From Acidobacteriota bacterium (lineage in GTDB: Bacteria > Acidobacteriota > Blastocatellia > RBC074), in NCBI GenBank assembly GCA_031414155.1, contig JANNUY010000037.1, forward strand, positions 1 to 59,622: a DNA stretch of 59,622 nt. The letters run 5' to 3'. Of the stretch, positions 606-54,253 are shown in pieces. A program made the position numbers and the translations under genes. Numbering within the stretch: the first letter of the stretch is position 1; the number at the start of each line of letters is the position of its first letter. The notes beneath the pieces were generated by a model. It searched no databases, was not told where the DNA came from, and saw nothing but the letters and a program-made list of their open reading frames with translations.

Positions 606-3600
606 CTAAGGTTTGCCGTCCCAATTGCCTGCGACGGGCAGGTCACCGGCTTGGCCGAAATTCACGGTGAAGGCTTCGCTGGCTTTGAAGCTCTGAAAGC
701 GATTCGTCAGCGTAAACACGCCGTTCTTGAATATGCCGAACGTGTCTGCGCCGTCGCCGTTCCAATCGCCTGCGACGGGCAGATCATCTGATGCACCGAA
801 AAACCCTACCTGAAAGGCTTCGAGCGGATTGAAATCTGCCAGGCGATTGGTGAACAACCAGCTTCCGAGAGGAAAAATGCCGACCGTGTCGAATCCGTCG
901 CCGTCCCAATCACCCGCCACCGGCAAGTCGCCCGTGACACCGAAAGCAAACGTCGCATCCGCCGGTGGCGCAGAGCCGTTGACGTTTTGACCGTTGATGC
1001 CATTCGTCACGACAAACAGTCCTGCACGAAAGACGCCGGGCGTATCAATCCCGTCGCCGTTCCAGTCGCCTGCTATCGGCAAATCATTCGACTGACCGAA
1101 CACAATCGTTCGGGTAATCGCCTGACATTGCGGCACGCCGCAACCAGGCACGCCAGGCCGCAAGATCAGCGTGAACTGTCCGACCGAAGGGCGAAAGAAG
1201 CCTGTGTCATCATCGCCGTCACCATCCCAATCGCCTGCCACAGGAATCGCGTCGGAGACAAAATTAAAGTTCACCGTTTGGTCAGCCGCGCCCGTCGTAT
1301 TGGAATTGCGCAGAAAAAAATCGGTGAGTGCAGGCCGAAAGACGCCTATCGTTTGGGCAAAGCTCGGACTGAATTTGGCAATGAAGCCATCGGCAGTTCC
1401 GCCTTGAAACGTCCCCTGAAAAGCGCCCGACGTAACCGTCAGATTGCCGTTCGTGTTCCCCGCCAGATAGACATTGCCTTTCGGGTCGAGCGCGACTCCG
1501 CCCGTCGCAAAGGTGTTGGTTCCGCCAAAGGTTGTTGAGTAAAGCAATTTCGCCGGGGCCGTCGCAGAAACCGTATTTTCGATTTTTGCTAGAAAGCTCG
1601 AGCCAGCCAGATTGACCACCAACGGATTGGCCGTCAGAAAGCTCACGCCAGAATCCGTCGTGCCCGTCACATAGGTATTGTTGGCCTGATCAAGAGTAAT
1701 GCCCAGTCCCGTTTCGGCACCATCTCCCCCCAGATAGCTGCAATAAAACAGCGCCGTTCCATCCGCATTCAGCTTGGCAATAAATGCCTCTTTTTCGGCG
1801 AGCGTCGCCCTGAAAGCATTCTTGAGCGGAAAGCTGCTGGGAAAAGATGAGGTTTCACCAGTGATGTAAACGCGTTGTTGTGCGTCAACCGCAATGGCAT
1901 TGATCGCGTCAAGGCCATCGCCTCCAAGATAAGTCAGGTAAGTTAGCGAAGCGGCTCCGCTGGCTTCCGTATCAATCTTGGCGACAAAACCGTTTCCGAA
2001 TCCTTTGAGATTGCTTTGCAGCGGTGGCAATGATTGTCCGGCGGGGCTTTTCACTGGCAGGTCGTCAGAAAGCGTCGTTCCGGCAACATAAGCATTGCCC
2101 ACGTTGTCTACGGCGACATCAACATCAAGTCCGAGCGCGCCTTCAAGGTCGCTGCCGCCCAGAAAACTCGCATAAAGCAATGAACTGTTGCCGCTGAGCG
2201 CCGGATTAAACACCGCAATATAGGCATCCGAAAAAGCTAGGCTGGCGCGAGAATTCTGAAAGCCGTTTTTGGTGGGCAGATTGGAAACAGAAAAACCAGC
2301 GACATAGATTTTGCCAGCGGCATCCACCGCAATGGCTTGACCTCCGTCAGGCCCACCGCCACCGTAATAGCTGGAATAAACCAGGTTGTTACCAGCAGCA
2401 TTCAACACCGTTACGAATCCGTCCTGACCGCGACAATTCAAGATCAAACACGAGAGGAAAGTGCCGTTGCCCTGAAAGGCTCCATCCGTCGTGGGGAAAT
2501 CGGCTGTGCCGCGCGTCTCGGTAATTCCGGTCACGCAAGCCTGACCATTGCTCATGACAGCGATATCCGCACCACTATCGCTATTGCGGCTGCCCAGATA
2601 AGTGCAATACACAGTGTCGGTCCCGCTGGCGTTGAGCTTGAGTACGAAAGCATCTGCGTCAGCATCTTTAGGCAGGCTTTGAAAAGCCCCTTTGACCGGA
2701 AGATTCGCTGAAAAAGTGACGCCGGTTATGTAAGCGTTGCCCGCCGCATCCACAGCAACGGCGTTGGCGGCGTCACCCAGACTACCTCCAACGTAAGTCG
2801 CATAAAGCAGTCGCGGATCAATCACCAGCGGACGGCTCGCGTCATAAGCGCCCAATGCAAAACTCACTTCGCTCTTTTCGTTCAACACGTATTTGCCCGT
2901 CACCGTCTCGCGGCCTTGCGCGCCGTCTTGATAAATCACCGGCGCGTGCTGGATGAGTTCGCCCGCCAAAGTTTGCAACACCAGATTGCCCGCGTCATCA
3001 AGCCGCAGCGTTTCCGCACCTTCAAACACAAGTTTGATCTGACGGGCATCAGCGCCCGGTTGCACAATGAAATCGTATTCAAGCGTGCGCTGATTGCCGT
3101 ACCAAACCATGTCCACGCCCGGCCAGACTTCGCAATATTTCACCTGACGATAAGTCGGCACATCCGTCTGCCACTCGCGGCGATCATTGCCGATCAGGTA
3201 ATTGCTCTTGCCTGCGAGCGGGTCGAGCGCCTCGGCGACCGGCGCAACGTTCGCGCCTGCGAGTTTGAGTTTCAACCAACCGCGCCAAGATTTCTTTTTG
3301 TCTTTACGGCTCAACGCCAACGTAGCCTCACCGCCCGACAAATAAAGCGAATAACCATCGCCCCGCGACAAGTATTCAACCGATTCGTCGGCTTGCCCGC
3401 GATTGGGCTCAAAGGCCAGCGGCAATTTGCCGTAAGTTTCGCCGTAATTTTTAATGATGCGCGCTTTCGCCTCAGCCTCAGTCACGCCGCTCGCCTGCGC
3501 CTGGGGCACGCGCGACCATCGTGCCAGTCCGCCAATTCCGACCAACAACGTAACTATCAATGCCGTTCCGATTAAGGGTTTGCGTCTTTTCGCCAACCTG

Positions 3601-3617
3601 TTCATGAGCTTGCTCAT
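606..3617 (-). CDS. Secreted SBBP-type beta-propeller repeat protein with C-terminal FG-GAP/VCBS-like repeats
   Basis: ORF 606..3689. I moved the start to ATG 3617 (MSKLMNRLAKRRKPLIGTALIVTLLVGIGG, a signal anchor). It has a PLAFEPNRGQAD N-terminal motif and many Y-x-[ST]-Y-L-G-G...A[VI]D..GN.Y[VI].G repeats. Five C-terminal DLP[VI]AG[DN]W[DN]GDG.D..G[IVF]F repeats are present. Confidence 0.85.
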   Translation of the reverse strand: MSKLMNRLAKRRKPLIGTALIVTLLVGIGGLARWSRVPQAQASGVTEAEAKARIIKNYGETYGKLPLAFEPNRGQADESVEYLSRGDGYSLYLSGGEATLALSRKDKKKSWRGWLKLKLAGANVAPVAEALDPLAGKSNYLIGNDRREWQTDVPTYRQVKYCEVWPGVDMVWYGNQRTLEYDFIVQPGADARQIKLVFEGAETLRLDDAGNLVLQTLAGELIQHAPVIYQDGAQGRETVTGKYVLNEKSEVSFALGAYDASRPLVIDPRLLYATYVGGSLGDAANAVAVDAAGNAYITGVTFSANLPVKGAFQSLPKDADADAFVLKLNASGTDTVYCTYLGSRNSDSGADIAVMSNGQACVTGITETRGTADFPTTDGAFQGNGTFLSCLILNCRGQDGFVTVLNAAGNNLVYSSYYGGGGPDGGQAIAVDAAGKIYVAGFSVSNLPTKNGFQNSRASLAFSDAYIAVFNPALSGNSSLLYASFLGGSDLEGALGLDVDVAVDNVGNAYVAGTTLSDDLPVKSPAGQSLPPLQSNLKGFGNGFVAKIDTEASGAASLTYLTYLGGDGLDAINAIAVDAQQRVYITGETSSFPSSFPLKNAFRATLAEKEAFIAKLNADGTALFYCSYLGGDGAETGLGITLDQANNTYVTGTTDSGVSFLTANPLVVNLAGSSFLAKIENTVSATAPAKLLYSTTFGGTNTFATGGVALDPKGNVYLAGNTNGNLTVTSGAFQGTFQGGTADGFIAKFSPSFAQTIGVFRPALTDFFLRNSNTTGAADQTVNFNFVSDAIPVAGDWDGDGDDDTGFFRPSVGQFTLILRPGVPGCGVPQCQAITRTIVFGQSNDLPIAGDWNGDGIDTPGVFRAGLFVVTNGINGQNVNGSAPPADATFAFGVTGDLPVAGDWDGDGFDTVGIFPLGSWLFTNRLADFNPLEAFQVGFFGASDDLPVAGDWNGDGADTFGIFKNGVFTLTNRFQSFKASEAFTVNFGQAGDLPVAGNWDGKP

Positions 3618-3804
3618 TGCCCTGTTCCGCCTTTCTGGAAGTGTCTGGTAAAGAATGAAAGTGATTTGCGACAGACAGAACATAGGCAACCTTGTCAGAG
3701 AAGTCTTAAAGGCGTTTTGAATTCTTTGTGAAAGATTTCTAAAGGCTCACAACTCAGCTACGCTCAAGCTCTTTTCTTCTTTGCGGCTTTGCGTGAGCGA
3801 CTGG

Positions 3805-48960: not shown

Positions 48961-51657
48961 TCATCGGCTTCCGCGTTCAACCGCATAAAGCCGCCACTCA
49001 CCTAAATGCCCCAGCATTTGCGCGCCGTGTTCGGCGAAATTCAGCCCTGAGCCTGCCACCAAATCTTTTACGGTATTCGACACCAGCACTTCATTGGGCG
49101 CAGCGTGCGAGGCGATTTGTTCGGCGAGTTCGACCGCCGTGCCGGCGGCGTGGTCGGGGAAGACTGAGCATTCGCCGGTGTGCAATCCGGCTTGCAGCTT
49201 TAGCCCCAAGCGTCGCGCGGAATCGCTGATCGCACAGGCAGCGCGAACGGCACGGGCGGGGCCATCAAACAACGCTACGACGCGGTCGCCCGCGACGGTG
49301 AGGGCACGGCCTTTGAACATTTCGATTTCGCGGGCGGCGTGCGATTGGTGGCGCGCGAGTTGTTCGCGCCAACGCGGATCGTCGAAGCGACTGATATTGG
49401 TGGCGGAACCTACGGCGCGCGTGATGAGGACGGTGGCAAGTACGCGGTCGGCTTCGGTGGCGTGGCGTACGCCGGTCAGGAACTCTTCGATTTCGTCGAG
49501 CAAGGTTTCCTGATCGCCGACAAAAGGCAGGTGATCGTTGCCGGGCAGTTCGACGAATTTCGCGCCGGGGATTTGTTCGGCGAGATAGTGGCCTTCTTCT
49601 ACGCGCAAAGTTTGGTCGCCGGTGCGATGCAAGACGAGCGTGGGTACGCGAATGCTTGAGAGGATGGGGCGCACGTCAATTTCCGCGTTCATGCGGGTGA
49701 GCGCGAGCGCCGCGCCGGGACTGGCTCCCATACGCAAATAGGTCGCCCACCAGTCACGAAACGCTGGGTCTTCGGCGAGGCTGGGCGCGCGAGTGTCTAT
49801 GCCTACGGGGCCGCCCCAATCGTGGCGTAGTTCCTCAAAGAAATGTTCGCGCTGTTCTTCGGTCGGGCCCCACGGATAATCTTCTGACCGCAGCCTGCGC
49901 GCGTAGCTGCCAATCATCACCAGCGCCGCAGTCTTTTCGGGGTACGTTGCCGAAAACAAGCAACTCATCGGGCCGCCTTCTGACACGCCGCACAGCACGG
50001 CGCGCTCTGAACCTACGGCGTCCATCACGGCGCGTACGTCGTCCATGCGCTGCTCTAACGTAGGCAGTTCGTTGAGCGGTACGCGGTCAGACAGGCCCGT
50101 GCCGCGCTTGTCGAACAGGATCACGCGCGCGAACGAAGCCAGCCGATTCAAGAATTTCGCAAAGGTCGGTTCCTTCCAAAACCATTCGAGGTGCGAAACC
50201 CAGCCCATCACGAATACGAGGTCGAGCGGGCCTTCACCGATGACTTGATAGGCGATGTTTACGTCGCCGCTGAGCGTGTAACGGACTTCGGGAATCAGAT
50301 AGTTTTCGCGGCTCTGATAGACCGGCGTTGAGGCAGGCGTAGGGAGCGGCATTTCGCTCAAACGCGCTTGCAGTTCGATTTCCTGTTGCAGTTGTTTGAG
50401 GTCGAGTTGCAGGTCTTTGATGGTTTGATAGCGTTCTTCGCGGTCTTTGCGCAATGCCTTGCTCACGATGCGTTCGAGTTCGGCGGGGCTGCCGGGCAGC
50501 AAGTGAATCAAGCGCGGCGGTTCGTGCTCGAGAATGGCAGCCATCACGTCGCTCGCCGTAGCGCCGTCGAAAGGCGTGCGTCCAAGCAGCATTTCGTAAA
50601 GCACGATGCCGAGGCTGAAGATGTCGCTGCGGCTATCGCAATCAAGGCCACGTGCCTGTTCGGGCGACATGTAATTCACCGTACCCATCACCGTGCCGGG
50701 GTCGGTGTGAACGGCTGACAAACCTTTGCCAATTTCTTTAGTTGTCTTAGCTAGCCCAAAATCCAGCACCTTAACGTAACCGTCCGGCCTGACCATGATA
50801 TTTTCGGGTTTGATGTCGCGGTGAACGACGCCTGCGTGGTGGGCGGCGTCAAGCGCGGCGGCGACTTGCCCGGCGAGTTGCAAGGCTTGCGCAAGTTTCA
50901 TACGGCCTTGCGCAAGGCGTTGGCGCAGCGTGTGGCCTTCGATGAACTCGGTCGCCATGAAATGAATGCCGCCGATGGTGCCGACTTCGTGAATGGTGAC
51001 GATGTTGGGATGGTTGAGCGCGCTCGCGGCTTTAGCCTCGTGGCGAAAGCGTTTGAGCCATATCTGGTTTTGCGTGAATTCGCGCGAGAGCAGTTTCAAC
51101 GCGACGCGGCGTTCGAGTTGCGTGTCGTGCGCGGCGTATACCTCACCCATGCCGCCGACGCCGATGCGCGAGACGATTTCGTAACGACCGAGTTTCGTGC
51201 CGTTTTGAATTGCGCCAAGCGGAGCCGTCGCGGGTTCTTCGTCTGGAGCAATCGTTGCCTGCAATGCTTGCCGATGTTGCGCGGCAAGCGTGAGATAAGC
51301 CTTCGTCGGTTGGTGCTGAATCTTTTTGACTGCGACTGCAAACCGGTAACCGCGCTTGGGAACGGTTTCGATGAATTGCCCGCCGCCGGGTTTTTCGCCC
51401 AGCACCTTGCGCAACATTGAAATATGTTGGGCGAGATTGGCTTCTTCGACAAAGGTGTCGGGCCAGATCAGCTCCATCAATTCCTCTTTGGTCATGATGT
51501 GCCCACTGTTTTCAACCAGAACAATTAGCGTGTGGAAGGCTTTAGGCGTGAGATTGATGATCGCGTCTTCGCGCCACAGGATGCGTTCGGTGGGATCGAG
51601 ACGATAGGGGACAAATTCATAAACGGTCATCACTCGTTCTTGGGCTTGTTTCGACAT
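48961..51657 (-). CDS. Four-domain signalling protein: OmpR/CadC-type winged-helix DNA-binding + Ser/Thr protein kinase + alpha/beta hydrolase + degenerate class III nucleotidyl cyclase
   Basis: The ORF begins at TTG 51672. ATG 51657 has GGAG 10 nt upstream. wHTH (51334-51624: LTPKAFHTL...ETVPKRGYRF). Kinase (50413-51186: GVGGMGEVY, ALK, HRDIKPEN, DFG, SPE). Hydrolase (49468-50283: GVSEGG, GNDH). Cyclase-like (48979-49446: RVLATVLITRAVGSA...AGD...GLHTGE...GTAVELAEQ). Confidence 0.85.
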   Translation of the reverse strand: MSKQAQERVMTVYEFVPYRLDPTERILWREDAIINLTPKAFHTLIVLVENSGHIMTKEELMELIWPDTFVEEANLAQHISMLRKVLGEKPGGGQFIETVPKRGYRFAVAVKKIQHQPTKAYLTLAAQHRQALQATIAPDEEPATAPLGAIQNGTKLGRYEIVSRIGVGGMGEVYAAHDTQLERRVALKLLSREFTQNQIWLKRFRHEAKAASALNHPNIVTIHEVGTIGGIHFMATEFIEGHTLRQRLAQGRMKLAQALQLAGQVAAALDAAHHAGVVHRDIKPENIMVRPDGYVKVLDFGLAKTTKEIGKGLSAVHTDPGTVMGTVNYMSPEQARGLDCDSRSDIFSLGIVLYEMLLGRTPFDGATASDVMAAILEHEPPRLIHLLPGSPAELERIVSKALRKDREERYQTIKDLQLDLKQLQQEIELQARLSEMPLPTPASTPVYQSRENYLIPEVRYTLSGDVNIAYQVIGEGPLDLVFVMGWVSHLEWFWKEPTFAKFLNRLASFARVILFDKRGTGLSDRVPLNELPTLEQRMDDVRAVMDAVGSERAVLCGVSEGGPMSCLFSATYPEKTAALVMIGSYARRLRSEDYPWGPTEEQREHFFEELRHDWGGPVGIDTRAPSLAEDPAFRDWWATYLRMGASPGAALALTRMNAEIDVRPILSSIRVPTLVLHRTGDQTLRVEEGHYLAEQIPGAKFVELPGNDHLPFVGDQETLLDEIEEFLTGVRHATEADRVLATVLITRAVGSATNISRFDDPRWREQLARHQSHAAREIEMFKGRALTVAGDRVVALFDGPARAVRAACAISDSARRLGLKLQAGLHTGECSVFPDHAAGTAVELAEQIASHAAPNEVLVSNTVKDLVAGSGLNFAEHGAQMLGHLGEWRLYAVERGSR

Positions 51658-51985
51658 TTCGGGAGACTCCAAACACTACGCGGGGGATCGTCAAGTCACT
51701 TTGTTACTTTGAAAAAGACATTTCGCCACAGCCGTCCGCAAAAGTCTTGAGCAGGCAATGCCATAAGAAAAATATTTTTGCTCTATTCAAAGGACTTACC
51801 CTCTTTCAAAACTCTTTCATAATAAATTCAACGCCAGCCTAAGACTTCAACAGCCGTTTTTCTTACTTTGCCGTCCGTACAAACAATACATCTGCGCGGA
51901 ACCTGAAAACCCCTGATGAGTGATTTGGCTCTGGTCGAGTCCTCACTCGTCTTTATGCAAAACAACGCCAGGAGGAAGTGAAATT

Positions 51986-54253
51986 ATGAACACCAAAATG
52001 CTCAAGCTGTTTTTATGCTTGGCAACCGGAGCAGGCGTAGGCTTGATGGCTTATCAACAAATGCCGCTGGCGAATCCCACCGCCACCGCGCAAGCCAGCG
52101 CCGTCGGGCCTACGCAATCAAGTCCGATTGCCGTGTCATCCAACGGACGTTTCGTTTGGGTCGCCAACCCTGACGCCGATTCGGTGTCGGTGATTGACGC
52201 CACCAACGACGCCAATCAGAAGGTCGCCGAAATTGCCGTCGGCGATGAACCCAACAATCTGGCGCTTTCTGCCGCCGGACGCGTTTATGTCGCCAACACG
52301 ATTACCGGTACGGTGTCGGTGATTGATGCGGCGTCGCGCGAAATCATTGCTTCGATTGCGGTCGGCACCGAACCTTACGGCCTGGCGCTCACGCCCAACG
52401 GCAAGAAGCTCTATGTCGTGAACGCGCGCTCAAACGATATTTCAGTGATTGACACTGCGACGAACGGCGCGATTCGTACCATCACCGGCGTCGGCACCGA
52501 ACCGCGCGGCATCGCCATCACGAGTGACGGTGACGCCGACGACAACGACGAAAAAGTTTATGTGGCGGAATTCAATTCCGTAGACATTCCCGGCAAAATC
52601 ATCGGCGCGGATGATTACAAAGAAGGCCGCGTCACCGTGATTGCTTCGGGCAGCGATCAGGTAATCGGACAAGCCGTATTGCCGCCGATGGATAACGTAG
52701 GCTTCAACTCGAACGGTTCAGCGCTCAAGCGTATCGCCGCGACCAATCCGGCGACGTTTACCGTTGCGACCGGCGCTTCTCCGAATTCGCTGAACGCGCT
52801 CGCCATCAAAGGCACTCGCGTTTATCTGCCGAATAACGCGGCTTCAGCGGATGGCCCCGTGCGTTTCAACGTGAACGTGCAATCGTTCTTGAACGTGATT
52901 GATGTTGCCACCGACAAAGAAGGCATCGCCGACGGCAAACCGCAATCCATCAACATGAATCGCGGCATCAACTTTGAACCAGCCAGCGCGCAAAAACTTT
53001 TCTTAGGCATGCCGTGGCATCTGGCCTTTGAACGCAACAGCAACGAAGGCTGGGTCGTGGCTTCGGCGGCGAACATTCTCGTCAAAGTTGTGCTCGACGC
53101 GAACGGTACGCCGACGATCAACCCGCCCGCAGCGGCGGGTGCAGCGAGCGGCATCGTTCGCATCGCCACCGGACAAAAACCAATTGGCGTGGCGATCAGT
53201 CCTGACGATGCGCGCGCTTACGTCGCCAACGAAGTCTCGCGCGACGTGACCGTTATTGACCTCAACACCAACCAAGTCATCACCACGGTCAGCACGGCTG
53301 CGTTGCCGAAAACCGGTACGCTTGAAGCGACGGTGCAATATGGCAAAGGCATTTTTTATAGTTCAGCTGCTGTGAATCTGCCTACGCTCGGCCCCGTCAT
53401 TCCCGTGGGCCGCCTCTCAAACGAAGGCTGGAGCGGTTGCGTCTCGTGTCACGCGAACGGATTCACCGATCAAGTGGTGTGGATTTTTGGCGCTGGCCCG
53501 CGGCGCAGCGTACCGTTGCACGCGACCTTCAATCCAAAAGACCCGACCGACCAGAAGATTCTGAATTACTCAGCGATCTTCGACGAAGTGCAGGATTTTG
53601 AGAACAACATTCGCGGCGTTTCGGGCGGACTCGGACTCATCACATTGGCTGACGGCGTGACACCTGACCCAACGCTGAACGCTTTCCCGCTGCCCAACAC
53701 CGGACGCAACGCTTCGCTTGATGCGTTGGCGACGTTTATCGCACGCGGCATTCGCGCACCGATTTCGCCCGCGCGTCGTGTTTCTGCGACCAGTCGTGAA
53801 GGTCGTGAAATTCAGTTGGGACGACAGCTTTTTGCGCAAGCGGGTTGCGTGAATTGCCACGGCGGCGGCGGTTGGTCGCTCGCGCGGCGCAATTACGTGC
53901 CGCCTCCGGCAGCGGCTGATGTCGTCAATGCGCAAATCATCGGCTTGTTGCGGCAGGTGGGTACGTTCGACCCGGCGAACGTGAATGAGATTCGCCAAAA
54001 CGGTGCCGCACCGCTGGGTGCTGATGGTTACGCCGCGCCTTCATTATTTGGCGCGTGGGCGATGGGGCCGCTGTTGCACAACGGTTCGGCGATCACGATT
54101 GATGACATTCTCGACAACGTGACGCATCGTCGCGCCGGACAAAACCGCTTCCAGGCCGACCCGTTGAACAACGCCGCCAATCGCGAGGCGCTCATCAAGT
54201 TCCTCAAATCCATTGACGCTTCGACGACGCCGTTTAACGTCGGTTTCAATTAA
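51986..54253 (+). CDS. Secreted YVTN/YncE-like beta-propeller fused to a diheme cytochrome c peroxidase (CCP/MauG)-like domain
   Basis: Start moved to ATG 51986 (GGAGGA at 51971). Signal peptide present. Repeated V.V.N....VSVID......I.VG.EP.G[LI]A motifs. CVSCH at 53438-53452 and CVNCH at 53846-53860 are 136 aa apart. A PSL...GPLLHNGS..T[IL] motif follows the second heme. Confidence 0.8.
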   Translation: MNTKMLKLFLCLATGAGVGLMAYQQMPLANPTATAQASAVGPTQSSPIAVSSNGRFVWVANPDADSVSVIDATNDANQKVAEIAVGDEPNNLALSAAGRVYVANTITGTVSVIDAASREIIASIAVGTEPYGLALTPNGKKLYVVNARSNDISVIDTATNGAIRTITGVGTEPRGIAITSDGDADDNDEKVYVAEFNSVDIPGKIIGADDYKEGRVTVIASGSDQVIGQAVLPPMDNVGFNSNGSALKRIAATNPATFTVATGASPNSLNALAIKGTRVYLPNNAASADGPVRFNVNVQSFLNVIDVATDKEGIADGKPQSINMNRGINFEPASAQKLFLGMPWHLAFERNSNEGWVVASAANILVKVVLDANGTPTINPPAAAGAASGIVRIATGQKPIGVAISPDDARAYVANEVSRDVTVIDLNTNQVITTVSTAALPKTGTLEATVQYGKGIFYSSAAVNLPTLGPVIPVGRLSNEGWSGCVSCHANGFTDQVVWIFGAGPRRSVPLHATFNPKDPTDQKILNYSAIFDEVQDFENNIRGVSGGLGLITLADGVTPDPTLNAFPLPNTGRNASLDALATFIARGIRAPISPARRVSATSREGREIQLGRQLFAQAGCVNCHGGGGWSLARRNYVPPPAAADVVNAQIIGLLRQVGTFDPANVNEIRQNGAAPLGADGYAAPSLFGAWAMGPLLHNGSAITIDDILDNVTHRRAGQNRFQADPLNNAANREALIKFLKSIDASTTPFNVGFN

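What the first reader, a model, noticed from the sequence alone, without database searches (positions are those of the whole stretch)
48961..51657. wHTH + Ser/Thr kinase + alpha/beta-hydrolase + catalytically degenerate class III cyclase in one 898-aa protein
The domain order can be read directly from the motifs. It runs: an OmpR/CadC-type winged helix, a Hanks kinase with all catalytic motifs intact, an alpha/beta hydrolase with GxSxG (GVSEG) and a GNDH histidine, then a class III cyclase homology domain.

In the cyclase domain four positions differ from the canonical catalytic pattern:
- The first metal Asp of F-T-D-I-V-G-S-T reads I-T-R-A-V-G-S-A (Arg codon at 49417-49419).
- The adenine-specifying Lys before GD is Thr (LTVAGD).
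- The transition-state Asn in G-x-x-V-N-x-A-x-R is replaced by Glu (GTAVELAEQ).
- The transition-state Arg in the same motif is replaced by Gln.

The cyclase domain is therefore predicted to be inactive and probably serves as a dimerisation or sensor module. A one-component DNA-binding kinase with a hydrolase and pseudo-cyclase sensor is an unusual architecture. It sits between a periplasmic sulfite-oxidase-type operon and a propeller-peroxidase gene, and it might regulate them.
Basis: partly seen in the sequence, partly recalled or inferred. Interest (0 to 1): 0.65.

Follow-up and report, generated by a model that had tools for sequence, protein, structure and literature searches.

The report
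DNA-binding kinase with hydrolase/dead-cyclase sensor
This is a real single 898-residue signalling protein from a conserved but unstudied soil Acidobacteria family, joining a DNA-binding domain, an intact protein kinase, an intact hydrolase and a dead cyclase domain, and it probably switches on the neighbouring peroxidase gene and several secreted-protein genes through a repeated TGAAA site.

Summary
Window 48961-51657 (-) encodes one 898-aa cytoplasmic protein with four domains: a CadC/OmpR-type winged helix, a Hanks Ser/Thr kinase, an alpha/beta hydrolase, and a class III cyclase-homology domain (CHD).

It is not an assembly chimera and not a one-off. At least 120 sequence clusters, mostly Blastocatellia, share the full architecture. 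Kinase motifs and the hydrolase triad are near-invariant. The cyclase catalytic positions are degenerate family-wide.

The hydrolase+CHD pair is a LipJ-like cassette, which also occurs alone or fused to other signalling domains. Stand-alone copies mostly keep the cyclase residues (63/89). Copies fused to a winged helix or kinase never do (0/18).

Sister proteins lacking the kinase share the same recognition helix. They also share the same upstream triple 11-bp-phased TGAAA repeat (window 51802-51831). In the window this repeat sits in front of a promoter-like element facing the divergent propeller-peroxidase gene. About eight further copies in the genome precede mostly secreted-protein genes.

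Best reading: a one-component regulator in which the hydrolase senses, the dead cyclase is a dimer scaffold, and DNA binding plus phosphorylation are the outputs. Nothing supports a link to the sulfite-oxidase operon. Verdict: an uncharacterised variant of known kinds, moderately interesting.

The parts
48961..51657 (-). Whole gene: 898-aa four-domain regulator (ATG at 51655-51657, TGA at 48961-48963)
51313..51636 (-). N-terminal CadC/ToxR/OmpR-type winged helix (residues ~8-115). Recognition helix is VEEANLAQHISMLRK.
   Evidence: Pfam PF00486, 65 bits. NCBIfam CadC/HilA partial hits. Helix is conserved in box-bearing orthologues.
50425..51183 (-). Hanks Ser/Thr kinase domain (residues ~159-411), with K188, E207, HRD-D281, N286, DFG-D299, activation-loop T318 and SPE
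   Evidence: Pfam PF00069, 167 bits. Motifs are invariant in 120/120 members and T318 is T in 115/120.
49453..50271 (-). Alpha/beta hydrolase domain (residues ~463-735) with triad S559 / D681 / H709. It is the most conserved domain of the protein.
   Evidence: Pfam PF00561. Triad conserved 120/116/120 of 120. 79% mean identity. Closest folds are KAI2/D14, TM 0.80-0.85.
48973..49452 (-). Degenerate class III cyclase-homology domain (residues ~736-895): R747, T787, D791, E843, Q847
   Evidence: 1ybt E=3.8e-32. PF00211 only 14.1 bits. Family-wide degeneracy. Anchored alignment.
51802..51831 (-). Triple direct repeat with 11-bp period, TTGAATTTATTATGAAAGAGTTTTGAAAGA. Candidate operator of the winged helix.
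51840..51869 (+). Promoter-like element facing the propeller-peroxidase gene: TAAGAC, 18 nt, TACTTT. It lies directly downstream of the repeat box in that direction.
   Evidence: Conserved next to the box at the other genomic box sites and in orthologous loci. The generic sigma-70 scan found nothing. Inferred.
51986..54253 (+). Divergent YncE-type beta-propeller + dihaem cytochrome c peroxidase-like gene. Predicted direct target.
   Evidence: Pfam. Start codon with AGGAGG. Orthologue is adjacent in L001, L006 and L058.
3717..3746 (+). Second copy of the box in the window, with the same promoter-like element facing the DUF7948+SBBP secreted-protein gene (606-3689, -)

Best explanation
The gene encodes a soluble one-component signal transducer of a conserved Acidobacteriota (mainly Blastocatellia) family.

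**Shown.**
- It has four real domains in one polypeptide.
- The kinase catalytic set is intact and invariant.
- The hydrolase Ser-Asp-His triad is intact and near-invariant.
- The cyclase-homology domain has lost metal Asp 1 and both transition-state residues in the whole family.
- The protein has no membrane segment.
- The hydrolase+CHD pair is a LipJ (Rv1900c)-like cassette. Elsewhere it stands alone, usually with cyclase residues intact, or is fused to wHTH, SARP, kinase, STAND or TIR modules.
- A triple TGAAA direct repeat with 11-bp phasing is tied to the regulator locus across the class. In this genome it is repeated at about eight other intergenic sites, mostly in front of secreted-protein genes.

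**Inferred mechanism.**
1. The hydrolase domain is the input. It binds or turns over a small ester- or lactone-type ligand, in the manner of the receptor-hydrolases RsbQ, KAI2 and D14.
2. The dead cyclase domain is kept for its obligate head-to-tail dimer. It transmits the ligand state and holds two chains together.
3. Dimerisation lets the RD-type kinase trans-autophosphorylate (T318). It also places the N-terminal winged helices on the phased TGAAA repeats.
4. From there they activate the adjoining weak promoters: in the window the divergent propeller-dihaem peroxidase gene, elsewhere secreted beta-helix, SBBP-propeller and other envelope proteins.
5. The kinase is a later insertion into an older wHTH-hydrolase-pseudocyclase regulator. 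It adds a phosphorylation layer or a second output.
For: **Architecture and residues.**
- Domains and residues.
- Family size, full-length coverage and independent contigs.
- Only one such protein among about 60 Hanks kinases in the genome.
- No hydrophobic segment (maximum KD19 of 1.19).
- Domain conservation runs ABH 79% > kinase 66% > wHTH 61% > CHD 58%.

**Cassette distribution.**
- 4,888 representatives at E<=1e-30. Of the best 150, 88 are stand-alone and the rest are fused to wHTH, wHTH-BTAD, kinase, AAA_16-TPR or TIR.
- The catalytic D/D/R set is kept in 63/89 stand-alone copies against 0/18 wHTH- or kinase-fused copies (Fisher p=9e-9).

**Relation to the three-domain form.**
- Three-domain wHTH-ABH-CHD proteins of the same class are 60-69% identical in the cassette. 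They group with the four-domain proteins in the tree (73-row set, support 96).

**Repeat box.**
- It is conserved between regulators only 64% identical.
- It scores above every shuffle upstream of about 20/29 regulators, always in the same orientation.
- In G171, G191 and G211 the only genome-wide strict match lies at the regulator.
- With one mismatch, 7 of 13 regulator-bearing genomes have a hit within about 0.6 kb of the gene.
- The own genome has 9 strict hits against 0 in the reversed control. PWM hits above 20 bits number 14 against 1-2 in shuffles.
- The recognition helix NLAQxIS goes with the box, and a different helix goes without it.

**Targets.**
- Box-adjacent gene families recur beside regulators in other genomes (Beta_helix and DUF7948-SBBP in L054; the 338-aa secreted protein in L042/L043).
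- The promoter-like element is conserved beside the box.

**Analogues.**
- The hydrolase fold is closest to KAI2/D14.
- RsbQ is reported to perceive butenolides: bioRxiv 10.1101/2023.12.05.570042.
- The ToxR consensus TNAAA-N5-TNAAA is a close analogue of the box: PMC4829181, PMC8517210.
Against: - No experiment exists on any member. No ligand, DNA binding, phosphorylation or dimerisation has been shown.
- The box could be bound by another factor. The genome has several other Trans_reg_C proteins.
- Total box counts at one mismatch do not differ between genomes with and without the regulator.
- The KAI2/D14 resemblance is only about 22% identity. Ordinary esterases score almost as well, so the hydrolase may simply be an enzyme.
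- The generic sigma-70 scan found no promoter in the intergenic region.
- Some SARP/STAND-fused cassettes keep a Pfam-detectable cyclase domain, so fusion does not always mean loss.
- The tree is a FastTree with open forks. The order of kinase gain and loss is not resolved.
Confidence: 0.55

Rival explanations
1. The protein is chiefly a kinase. The C-terminal cassette regulates phosphorylation of other proteins. The winged helix only autoregulates or tethers, and the TGAAA box and its secreted-protein genes belong to a different regulator or a dedicated sigma factor.
For: - Kinase motifs are invariant in 120/120 members.
- A subclade keeps kinase+cassette without the wHTH.
- One orthologue is followed by FHA, PP2C and further kinases.
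- Other Trans_reg_C proteins exist in the genome.
- Box counts at one mismatch do not track regulator presence.
Against: - Kinase-less three-domain orthologues carry the same box and the same recognition helix.
- In several genomes the only strict box lies at the regulator gene.
- The recognition helix changes where the box is absent.
Confidence: 0.2
2. The hydrolase domain is a working metabolic esterase or lactonase rather than a sensor. The protein is a moonlighting enzyme-regulator whose DNA binding reports substrate flux. The CHD is an inert relic of the LipJ ancestor.
For: - The triad is strictly conserved, and the ABH is the most conserved domain.
- LipJ is listed as a characterised esterase (PMC10865251).
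- There are NCBIfam partial hits to enol-lactonase PcaD and to macrolide esterases.
Against: - The receptor-hydrolases D14 and KAI2 also keep their triad, so conservation does not discriminate.
- CHD structural motifs (GLHTGEC in 118/118 members, FDGPAR, STVKDLVAGSG) are strongly conserved, which is not expected of a relic.
- The same cassette is repeatedly fused to signalling modules.
Confidence: 0.15
3. The degenerate CHD is itself the sensor. It has become a nucleotide- or small-molecule-binding pseudo-enzyme pocket (ATP, cNMP or bicarbonate-type ligand) that gates kinase and DNA binding.
For: - One metal Asp is retained here (D791).
- The invariant E829-C830 follows the GLHTG strand in 118/118 members, which hints at a conserved site.
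Against: - D791 is Asp in only 44/120 members. The Lys, Asn and Arg positions vary widely, so no nucleotide-binding set is conserved.
- The CHD is the least conserved domain.
Confidence: 0.08
4. The CHD is still catalytic as a heterodimer with the genome's one canonical class III cyclase.
For: A bona fide PF00211 gene exists on contig C517 (106 bits).
Against: A heterodimer site needs both metal Asp from one chain and Lys/Asp/Asn/Arg from the other. This CHD lacks metal Asp 1 and also lacks Asn and Arg, so it can supply neither half.
Confidence: 0.02

Closest known systems
LipJ / Rv1900c of Mycobacterium tuberculosis (NCBIfam NF058673; CHD structures 1ybt, 1ybu)
   Same: Same alpha/beta-hydrolase then class III CHD cassette, aligned end to end (residues 460-898). 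The CHD is the best PDB match (E=3.8e-32).
   Different: LipJ is a stand-alone two-domain protein with D, D, H, R catalytic residues. Here the score is 390.7 bits against a cut-off of 800, metal Asp 1 and the H/R pair are replaced, and a wHTH and a kinase are fused in front.
wHTH-hydrolase-pseudocyclase three-domain regulators of Acidobacteriota (uncharacterised; seen in 18 of the 25 cassette-bearing genomes, out of 401 phylum genomes)
   Same: Same wHTH recognition helix, same cassette (60-69% identity), same degenerate CHD and same upstream TGAAA box.
   Different: They lack the roughly 300-aa Hanks kinase that sits between the wHTH and the hydrolase here.
ToxR / CadC family (N-terminal OmpR-type wHTH one-component regulators)
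   Same: N-terminal wHTH without a receiver domain. Partial NCBIfam hits to CadC and HilA. The ToxR consensus TNAAA-N5-TNAAA resembles the TGAAA-N6-TGAAA box (PMC4829181, PMC8517210).
   Different: ToxR and CadC are membrane-anchored with periplasmic sensors. This protein has no membrane segment and senses through a cytoplasmic hydrolase/CHD cassette.
Hanks kinase / OmpR-type regulator pairs AfsK-AfsR and PknH-EmbR (own knowledge)
   Same: A Ser/Thr kinase controls a winged-helix activator. SARP-type (wHTH-BTAD) fusions of the same cassette also exist.
   Different: There the kinase and regulator are separate proteins. Here they form one chain, and no FHA or BTAD domain is present.
Receptor-hydrolases RsbQ (Bacillus) and KAI2/D14 (plants)
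   Same: The best structural matches of the hydrolase domain (TM 0.80-0.85; sequence E down to 2.7e-17). These are catalytic-triad hydrolases that act as small-molecule receptors feeding a signalling partner (bioRxiv 10.1101/2023.12.05.570042).
   Different: Only about 22% identity, and ordinary esterases score similarly. There the partner is a separate protein (RsbP, MAX2). The ligand here is unknown.

Membership tests
LipJ equivalog (NCBIfam NF058673) | Whole-protein score at or above the curated cut-off (800 bits) | tested here: not met
   390.7 bits, although the model is covered 7-449 of 449
LipJ equivalog (NCBIfam NF058673) | Two-domain hydrolase + catalytically competent CHD (D, D, H/N, R) | tested here: not met
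   R747, E843 and Q847 replace D, H and R of Rv1900c. Two extra N-terminal domains are present.
Class III nucleotidyl cyclase (Pfam PF00211) | Pfam gathering score (21.9 bits) | tested here: not met
   14.1 bits, E=0.036, on the isolated domain. No hit on the whole protein.
Class III nucleotidyl cyclase (Pfam PF00211) | Homology to a solved CHD | tested here: met
   1ybt E=3.8e-32 and Ma1120 E about 1e-9. The AF2 model is confident, with the expected secondary-structure order.
Class III nucleotidyl cyclase (Pfam PF00211) | Two metal Asp plus transition-state Asn and Arg | tested here: not met
   Only D791 is kept. The family-wide pattern is R/K/H/Q, E/D and Q/E at the other positions.
Hanks-type Ser/Thr protein kinase (PF00069) | Gathering score and the catalytic set: G-loop, VAIK Lys, alphaC Glu, HRD, Asn, DFG, APE | tested here: met
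   167 bits against 31.7. All motifs are present and invariant in 120/120 members.
Hanks-type Ser/Thr protein kinase (PF00069) | Phosphotransfer activity | not testable with these tools
   Needs an in vitro autophosphorylation assay
OmpR/PhoB/CadC winged helix (PF00486) | Gathering score | tested here: met
   65 bits against 26.2
OmpR/PhoB/CadC winged helix (PF00486) | Binds phased direct repeats | tested here: inconclusive
   An 11-bp-phased triple repeat is tied to the gene and covaries with the recognition helix. Binding itself is untested.
ToxR/CadC-type membrane one-component regulators | Transmembrane helix and periplasmic sensor after the wHTH | tested here: not met
   No hydrophobic 19-mer above 1.2. 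A kinase and a cytoplasmic cassette follow instead.
Alpha/beta hydrolase fold (PF00561) | Gathering score and Ser-Asp-His triad on the canonical elements | tested here: met
   57 bits against 25.8. S559/D681/H709 are conserved 120/116/120 of 120.
RsbQ/KAI2/D14 receptor-hydrolases | Close fold and sequence relationship | tested here: inconclusive
   They are the top Foldseek and phmmer hits, but at 21-23% identity, and esterases score nearly as well.
RsbQ/KAI2/D14 receptor-hydrolases | Ligand perception coupled to a signalling partner | not testable with these tools
   Needs ligand screening and mutant reporters

The most novel reading that the evidence does not exclude
The LipJ-type hydrolase/cyclase cassette is a widespread, portable small-molecule receptor. 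Its original cAMP output has repeatedly been replaced by DNA-binding, kinase, STAND or TIR outputs, with the cyclase domain decaying into a dimer scaffold each time. In this protein it would form a bacterial receptor-hydrolase one-component system, analogous to RsbQ/KAI2/D14. That system would control a regulon of secreted and envelope proteins through a ToxR-like TGAAA repeat, with an inserted Hanks kinase as a second output.
Probability: 0.35. Interest if true: 0.65.

Novelty: new variant of a known kind. Interest (0 to 1): 0.45.

Why it matters
- Acidobacteria are abundant in soil, and their signalling is almost unstudied.
- The family offers a compact test case for how an enzyme-linked second-messenger module (hydrolase + adenylyl cyclase) is rewired into a direct transcriptional and phosphorylation switch.
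- It gives a natural series: stand-alone active cyclase, then wHTH fusion with a dead cyclase, then kinase insertion. Each evolutionary step can be examined along it.
- The predicted operator and about eight candidate target promoters make the hypothesis directly testable in E. coli or in vitro, without culturing the organism.
- If the hydrolase proves to be a receptor, it would add to the few bacterial examples of the RsbQ/KAI2 principle.

Tried and rejected
- **Assembly chimera or fused ORFs:** rejected. At least 120 full-length homologues lie on independent contigs, and the reading frame is uninterrupted.
- **Active cyclase, alone or as a heterodimer with the C517 cyclase:** rejected on residues.
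- **Membrane-anchored ToxR/CadC-type protein:** rejected, no hydrophobic segment.
- **Conserved operon with the SorAB-like genes:** rejected, adjacent only in the window (tblastn; contexts).
- **Universally conserved neighbour:** none found. Clustering of neighbours gives only genus-level synteny, plus a recurrent downstream GT2.
- **Box as a dispersed repeat or MITE:** similarity among the genomic copies stops after about 75 nt of box plus promoter-like element, and the flanks are unrelated.
- **Box as merely the promoter of a leaderless regulator mRNA:** considered because it abuts the ATG in L006/L058. It does not explain the conserved middle repeat, nor the loci where the box lies 145-220 nt upstream.
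- **Phylogenetic profile of box counts at one mismatch:** uninformative, because noise equals signal.
- **Literature:** searches found no description of this architecture. PMC2447327 holds only part of its text.
- Two literature queries failed on syntax.
Full report
**The gene**

Window 48961-51672 (-) is one open frame. The gene as called in public data starts at the ATG at 51657 and gives 898 aa (P0002). I re-derived all residue coordinates from the DNA.

Domain matches:
- Pfam finds Trans_reg_C (residues 39-111 of the 903-aa frame), Pkinase (164-416) and Abhydrolase_1 (486-718). It finds no cyclase domain.
- NCBIfam's LipJ model covers residues 460-898 from its first to its last position, at 390.7 bits against a cut-off of 800.
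- The last 171 residues match the solved cyclase-homology domain (CHD) of Rv1900c/LipJ (1ybt) at E=3.8e-32, and Ma1120 at about 1e-9.
- On its own, this domain reaches only 14.1 bits against Pfam PF00211, whose cut-off is 21.9.

In the HMMER alignment to 1ybt and a MAFFT alignment anchored on Rv1900c and Ma1120:
- Metal Asp 1 is Arg747 (codon 49417-49419).
- The substrate-specifying position (Lys in Ma1120, Asn in Rv1900c) is Thr787.
- The transition-state Asn/His is Glu843.
- The transition-state Arg is Gln847.
- Only the second metal Asp (D791) remains.

The kinase has every catalytic element: G-loop, K188, E207, HRD-D281, N286, DFG-D299 and SPE. The hydrolase has S559 in GVSEGG, D681, and H709 in GNDH. 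A 19-residue hydropathy scan peaks at 1.19, so the protein is soluble.

**It is a family, not an accident**

- A search of 5.8 billion proteins returned at least 120 clusters at 54-93% identity. Almost all cover 95-99% of the query. They lie on many independent contigs, mostly Blastocatellia/Acidobacteriota MAGs with a few labelled Xanthomonadales. NCBI names them "alpha/beta fold hydrolase". JGI's automatic names list all four parts.
- In an alignment of 120 members, the kinase motifs are invariant and the hydrolase triad is 120/116/120.
- The cyclase positions are degenerate throughout: R/K/H/Q at metal Asp 1 (D in 2 of 120), Asp at metal 2 in only 44, E/D at the Asn position, Q/E at the Arg position.
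- Structural CHD motifs are nonetheless very well kept (GLHTGEC in 118/118, FDGPAR, STVKDLVAGSG).
- Mean identity to the window protein is highest in the hydrolase (79%), then kinase (66%), wHTH (61%) and CHD (58%).
- The activation-loop residue T318 is Thr in 115/120 members.
- The source genome is a 6.5-Mb MAG with 1204 contigs. It has about 60 Hanks kinases but only this one carries the cassette. It has one canonical class III cyclase elsewhere.

**The hydrolase+CHD pair is a portable cassette**

Residues 460-903 were searched against 1.84 billion representatives. This gave 4,888 hits at E<=1e-30. I classified the best 150 with HMMs built from the family's own domains and with Pfam:
- 88 are stand-alone, LipJ-like proteins.
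- The rest carry an N-terminal wHTH, wHTH-BTAD (SARP type), a kinase, AAA_16-TPR (STAND) or a TIR domain.
- One has the order kinase-wHTH-cassette.

I scored the two metal Asp and the Arg in each:

| Architecture | Keep all three residues |
|---|---|
| Stand-alone | 63 of 89 |
| wHTH- or kinase-fused | 0 of 18 (Fisher p=9e-9) |
| Other N-terminal fusions (mostly SARP/STAND) | 8 of 36 |

Loss of cyclase chemistry therefore goes with gaining an alternative output domain, though not in every fusion type. I infer that the hydrolase is the constant, input-like part, and that the CHD survives as a structural element when its product is no longer the output.

**Relation to a kinase-less form**

- In 401 genomes sampled across the phylum, 25 carry the cassette at E<=1e-40. 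That is 14 of the 34 same-class genomes listed, the window's own included.
- Six-frame domain mapping of those loci gave this split:

| Architecture | Genomes |
|---|---|
| Three-domain wHTH-hydrolase-CHD, 60-69% identical to the window cassette | 18 |
| Four-domain (the window and one genome of the same family) | 2 |
| Kinase-containing, N-terminus not determined or absent | 4 |
| Cassette only | 1 |

- In a FastTree of 148 cassettes, the four-domain and kinase-bearing proteins fall with these three-domain proteins. They share a 73-row set (support 96), and inside it a 63-row set (support 82).
- The four-domain label needs 5 changes on that tree. The forks are open, so a single insertion of the kinase between wHTH and hydrolase is the simplest reading but is not shown.

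**Neighbourhood**

I examined thirteen four-domain contexts.
- The SorA-like molybdoenzyme/cytochrome pair is adjacent only in the window (tblastn).
- The divergent YncE-propeller + dihaem peroxidase-like gene (Pfam) is adjacent and divergent in four contexts:
  - the window;
  - L001 (regulator 81% identical, neighbour 84.5%);
  - L006 (regulator 64%, neighbour 60-70%, frame-broken in that assembly);
  - L058.
- On the tree these belong to two different subclades. The closer relatives L002/L004/L005 instead have a TPR-histidine kinase-sigma54 regulator operon on that side.
- A 325-aa GT2 gene recurs downstream in seven loci.

**A conserved cis element**

Aligning the divergent intergenic regions revealed about 50 nt conserved between loci whose regulators share only 64% identity.

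*Form and occurrence*
- Its core is three TGAA(A/G) units spaced 11 bp apart. In the window this is 51802-51831, read on the minus strand as TTGAATTTATTATGAAAGAGTTTTGAAAGA.
- A weight matrix finds it, always in the regulator's orientation, upstream of most four-domain and three-domain regulators of the class. Scores exceed the best of 100 shuffles in about 20 of 29 loci.
- It is absent in distant, GC-richer members.
- Those distant members also have a different recognition helix (VGDAALKV... instead of VEExNLAQxIS...).

*Genome-wide matches*
- The strict pattern TGARNNNNTTNTRAANNNNTTNTRAA has 9 matches in the window's genome and 0 for the reversed control.
- In G171, G191 and G211 its only genome-wide match lies directly upstream of the regulator.
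- With one mismatch, 7 of 13 regulator-bearing genomes have a match within about 0.6 kb of the gene. Each genome has only about 2 matches in 4-5 Mb.
- Total counts at that looseness do not separate genomes with and without the regulator.

**Where the box points**

- In the window's genome the matrix gives 14 hits above 20 bits, against 1-2 in locally shuffled sequence.
- The strong ones are all intergenic. Flanking similarity stops after about 75 nt, so they are not a mobile repeat.
- Beside every copy, on the side opposite to the regulator's orientation, lies a conserved (T)TTAAGAC, then 18-19 nt, then TAnnTT. In the window these are TAAGAC at 51840-51845 and TACTTT at 51864-51869, facing the peroxidase gene, which starts at 51986 behind an AGGAGG.
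- The same arrangement, with TATnTT, is seen in the orthologous loci whatever the divergent gene is.
- This is the geometry of an activator site just upstream of a weak -35. The generic sigma-70 scan does not call it, so the promoter is inferred.

Genes on that side of the box in the window's genome:

| Site | Gene |
|---|---|
| Window | propeller-peroxidase |
| C816 | 338-aa secreted protein |
| C436 | 168-aa secreted protein |
| C510 | secreted Beta_helix protein |
| C390 | 341-aa secreted protein |
| Window 606-3689 (box at 3717-3746) | DUF7948+SBBP protein |
| C14 | AMP-binding enzyme |

A MatE exporter lies beside the C242 box, on the regulator-orientation side.

Homologues of three of these families sit next to regulators in other genomes:
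- Beta_helix and DUF7948-SBBP lie beside P0041 in L054, which has two boxes.
- The 338-aa protein is the divergent neighbour of three-domain regulators in L042/L043.

**The hydrolase fold**

- An AlphaFold2 model of the cassette is confident (mean pLDDT 91, pTM 0.66).
- Its best PDB matches are the butenolide receptor-hydrolases KAI2, D14, DAD2 and HTL (TM 0.80-0.85 on the target, 21-23% identity). Bacterial esterases come close behind.
- Sequence search agrees, with KAI2-type proteins at E=2.7e-17.
- This is a resemblance, not membership.
- RsbQ, the bacterial relative, is reported to perceive butenolides (bioRxiv 10.1101/2023.12.05.570042).
- LipJ itself is listed among characterised esterases (PMC10865251).

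**Interpretation**

*Shown*
- The architecture, the residue states and the family.
- The cassette's modular distribution, and the link between fusion and cyclase decay.
- The box's tie to the regulator locus, and its multiplication in this genome.

*Inferred*
- The winged helix binds the box. The 11-bp-phased direct repeats suit OmpR-family domains, and the ToxR consensus TNAAA-N5-TNAAA is similar (PMC4829181, PMC8517210).
- It activates the adjoining promoters.
- The hydrolase is the ligand input and the dead CHD is the dimer scaffold.
- The kinase autophosphorylates at T318 and adds a phosphorylation layer.

The rivals are listed separately:
- It is mainly a kinase, and the box belongs to another factor.
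- The hydrolase is an ordinary enzyme.
- The CHD is the ligand pocket.
- The CHD is active as a cyclase heterodimer.

**Novelty and score**

- The components and the LipJ cassette are known. The family is in the databases and has been met repeatedly in this scan.
- My literature searches found no description or experiment on the four-domain or three-domain regulators.
- I rate it a new variant of known kinds, with moderate interest.
- What is new is the pattern of output swapping with cyclase decay, and a concrete, testable operator and regulon prediction.

Noticed in passing
window 3717-3746 (+), next to 606-3689 (-): A second copy of the TGAAA triple-repeat box, with the same TAAGAC-N18-TATGTT element. 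It faces a DUF7948 + SBBP beta-propeller-repeat secreted protein. The likely true start of that gene is the MSKLMN Met at about 3617, not 3689.
   Followed up: partly
own genome contigs C816:5383, C436:4192, C510:9721/9732, C390:1542, C242:1662 (= C196:6489), C14:2494: Further strong copies of the box, all intergenic. Most face signal-peptide proteins of unknown function, a Beta_helix protein, or a CarboxypepD_reg/DUF4139 protein. C510 carries four phased repeats.
   Followed up: partly
P0135, P0151, P0174, P0125 (representative proteins): The LipJ-like cassette also occurs behind a TIR domain, behind AAA_16-TPR STAND modules (some with SARP wHTH-BTAD, 1246-1550 aa), and in the order kinase-wHTH-cassette. 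Some STAND/SARP fusions keep a Pfam-detectable cyclase domain.
   Followed up: partly
L006:3431-5763 (-): In this assembly the orthologue of the propeller-peroxidase gene is split into two or three frames (called as 451 + 265 aa). It is intact (774 aa) in the closely related L058. This is probably an assembly frameshift.
   Followed up: no
L002/L004/L005/L057, upstream of the regulator: In one subclade the divergent neighbour is a TAtT/TPR protein followed by a HAMP histidine kinase and a sigma54-dependent response regulator. It lies behind the same box and promoter-like element, which suggests a regulatory cascade.
   Followed up: no
L054:8178-12593: One orthologue is followed by an FHA-trypsin protein, a PP2C phosphatase and two more Hanks kinases. 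This may be a Ser/Thr phospho-signalling neighbourhood.
   Followed up: no
family alignment, residues 824-831 of P0002 (window about 49165-49188): GLHTGEC is invariant in 118/118 members and is followed by D in 104, although the catalytic positions around it are free to vary. The role of the conserved Glu-Cys(-Asp) is unexplained.
   Followed up: no
L039, L042-L046 (genus g6): A stand-alone alpha/beta-hydrolase paralogue of about 340 aa lies 2.7-5.8 kb from the three-domain regulator. It clusters with the regulator's hydrolase domain in all-against-all BLAST.
   Followed up: no
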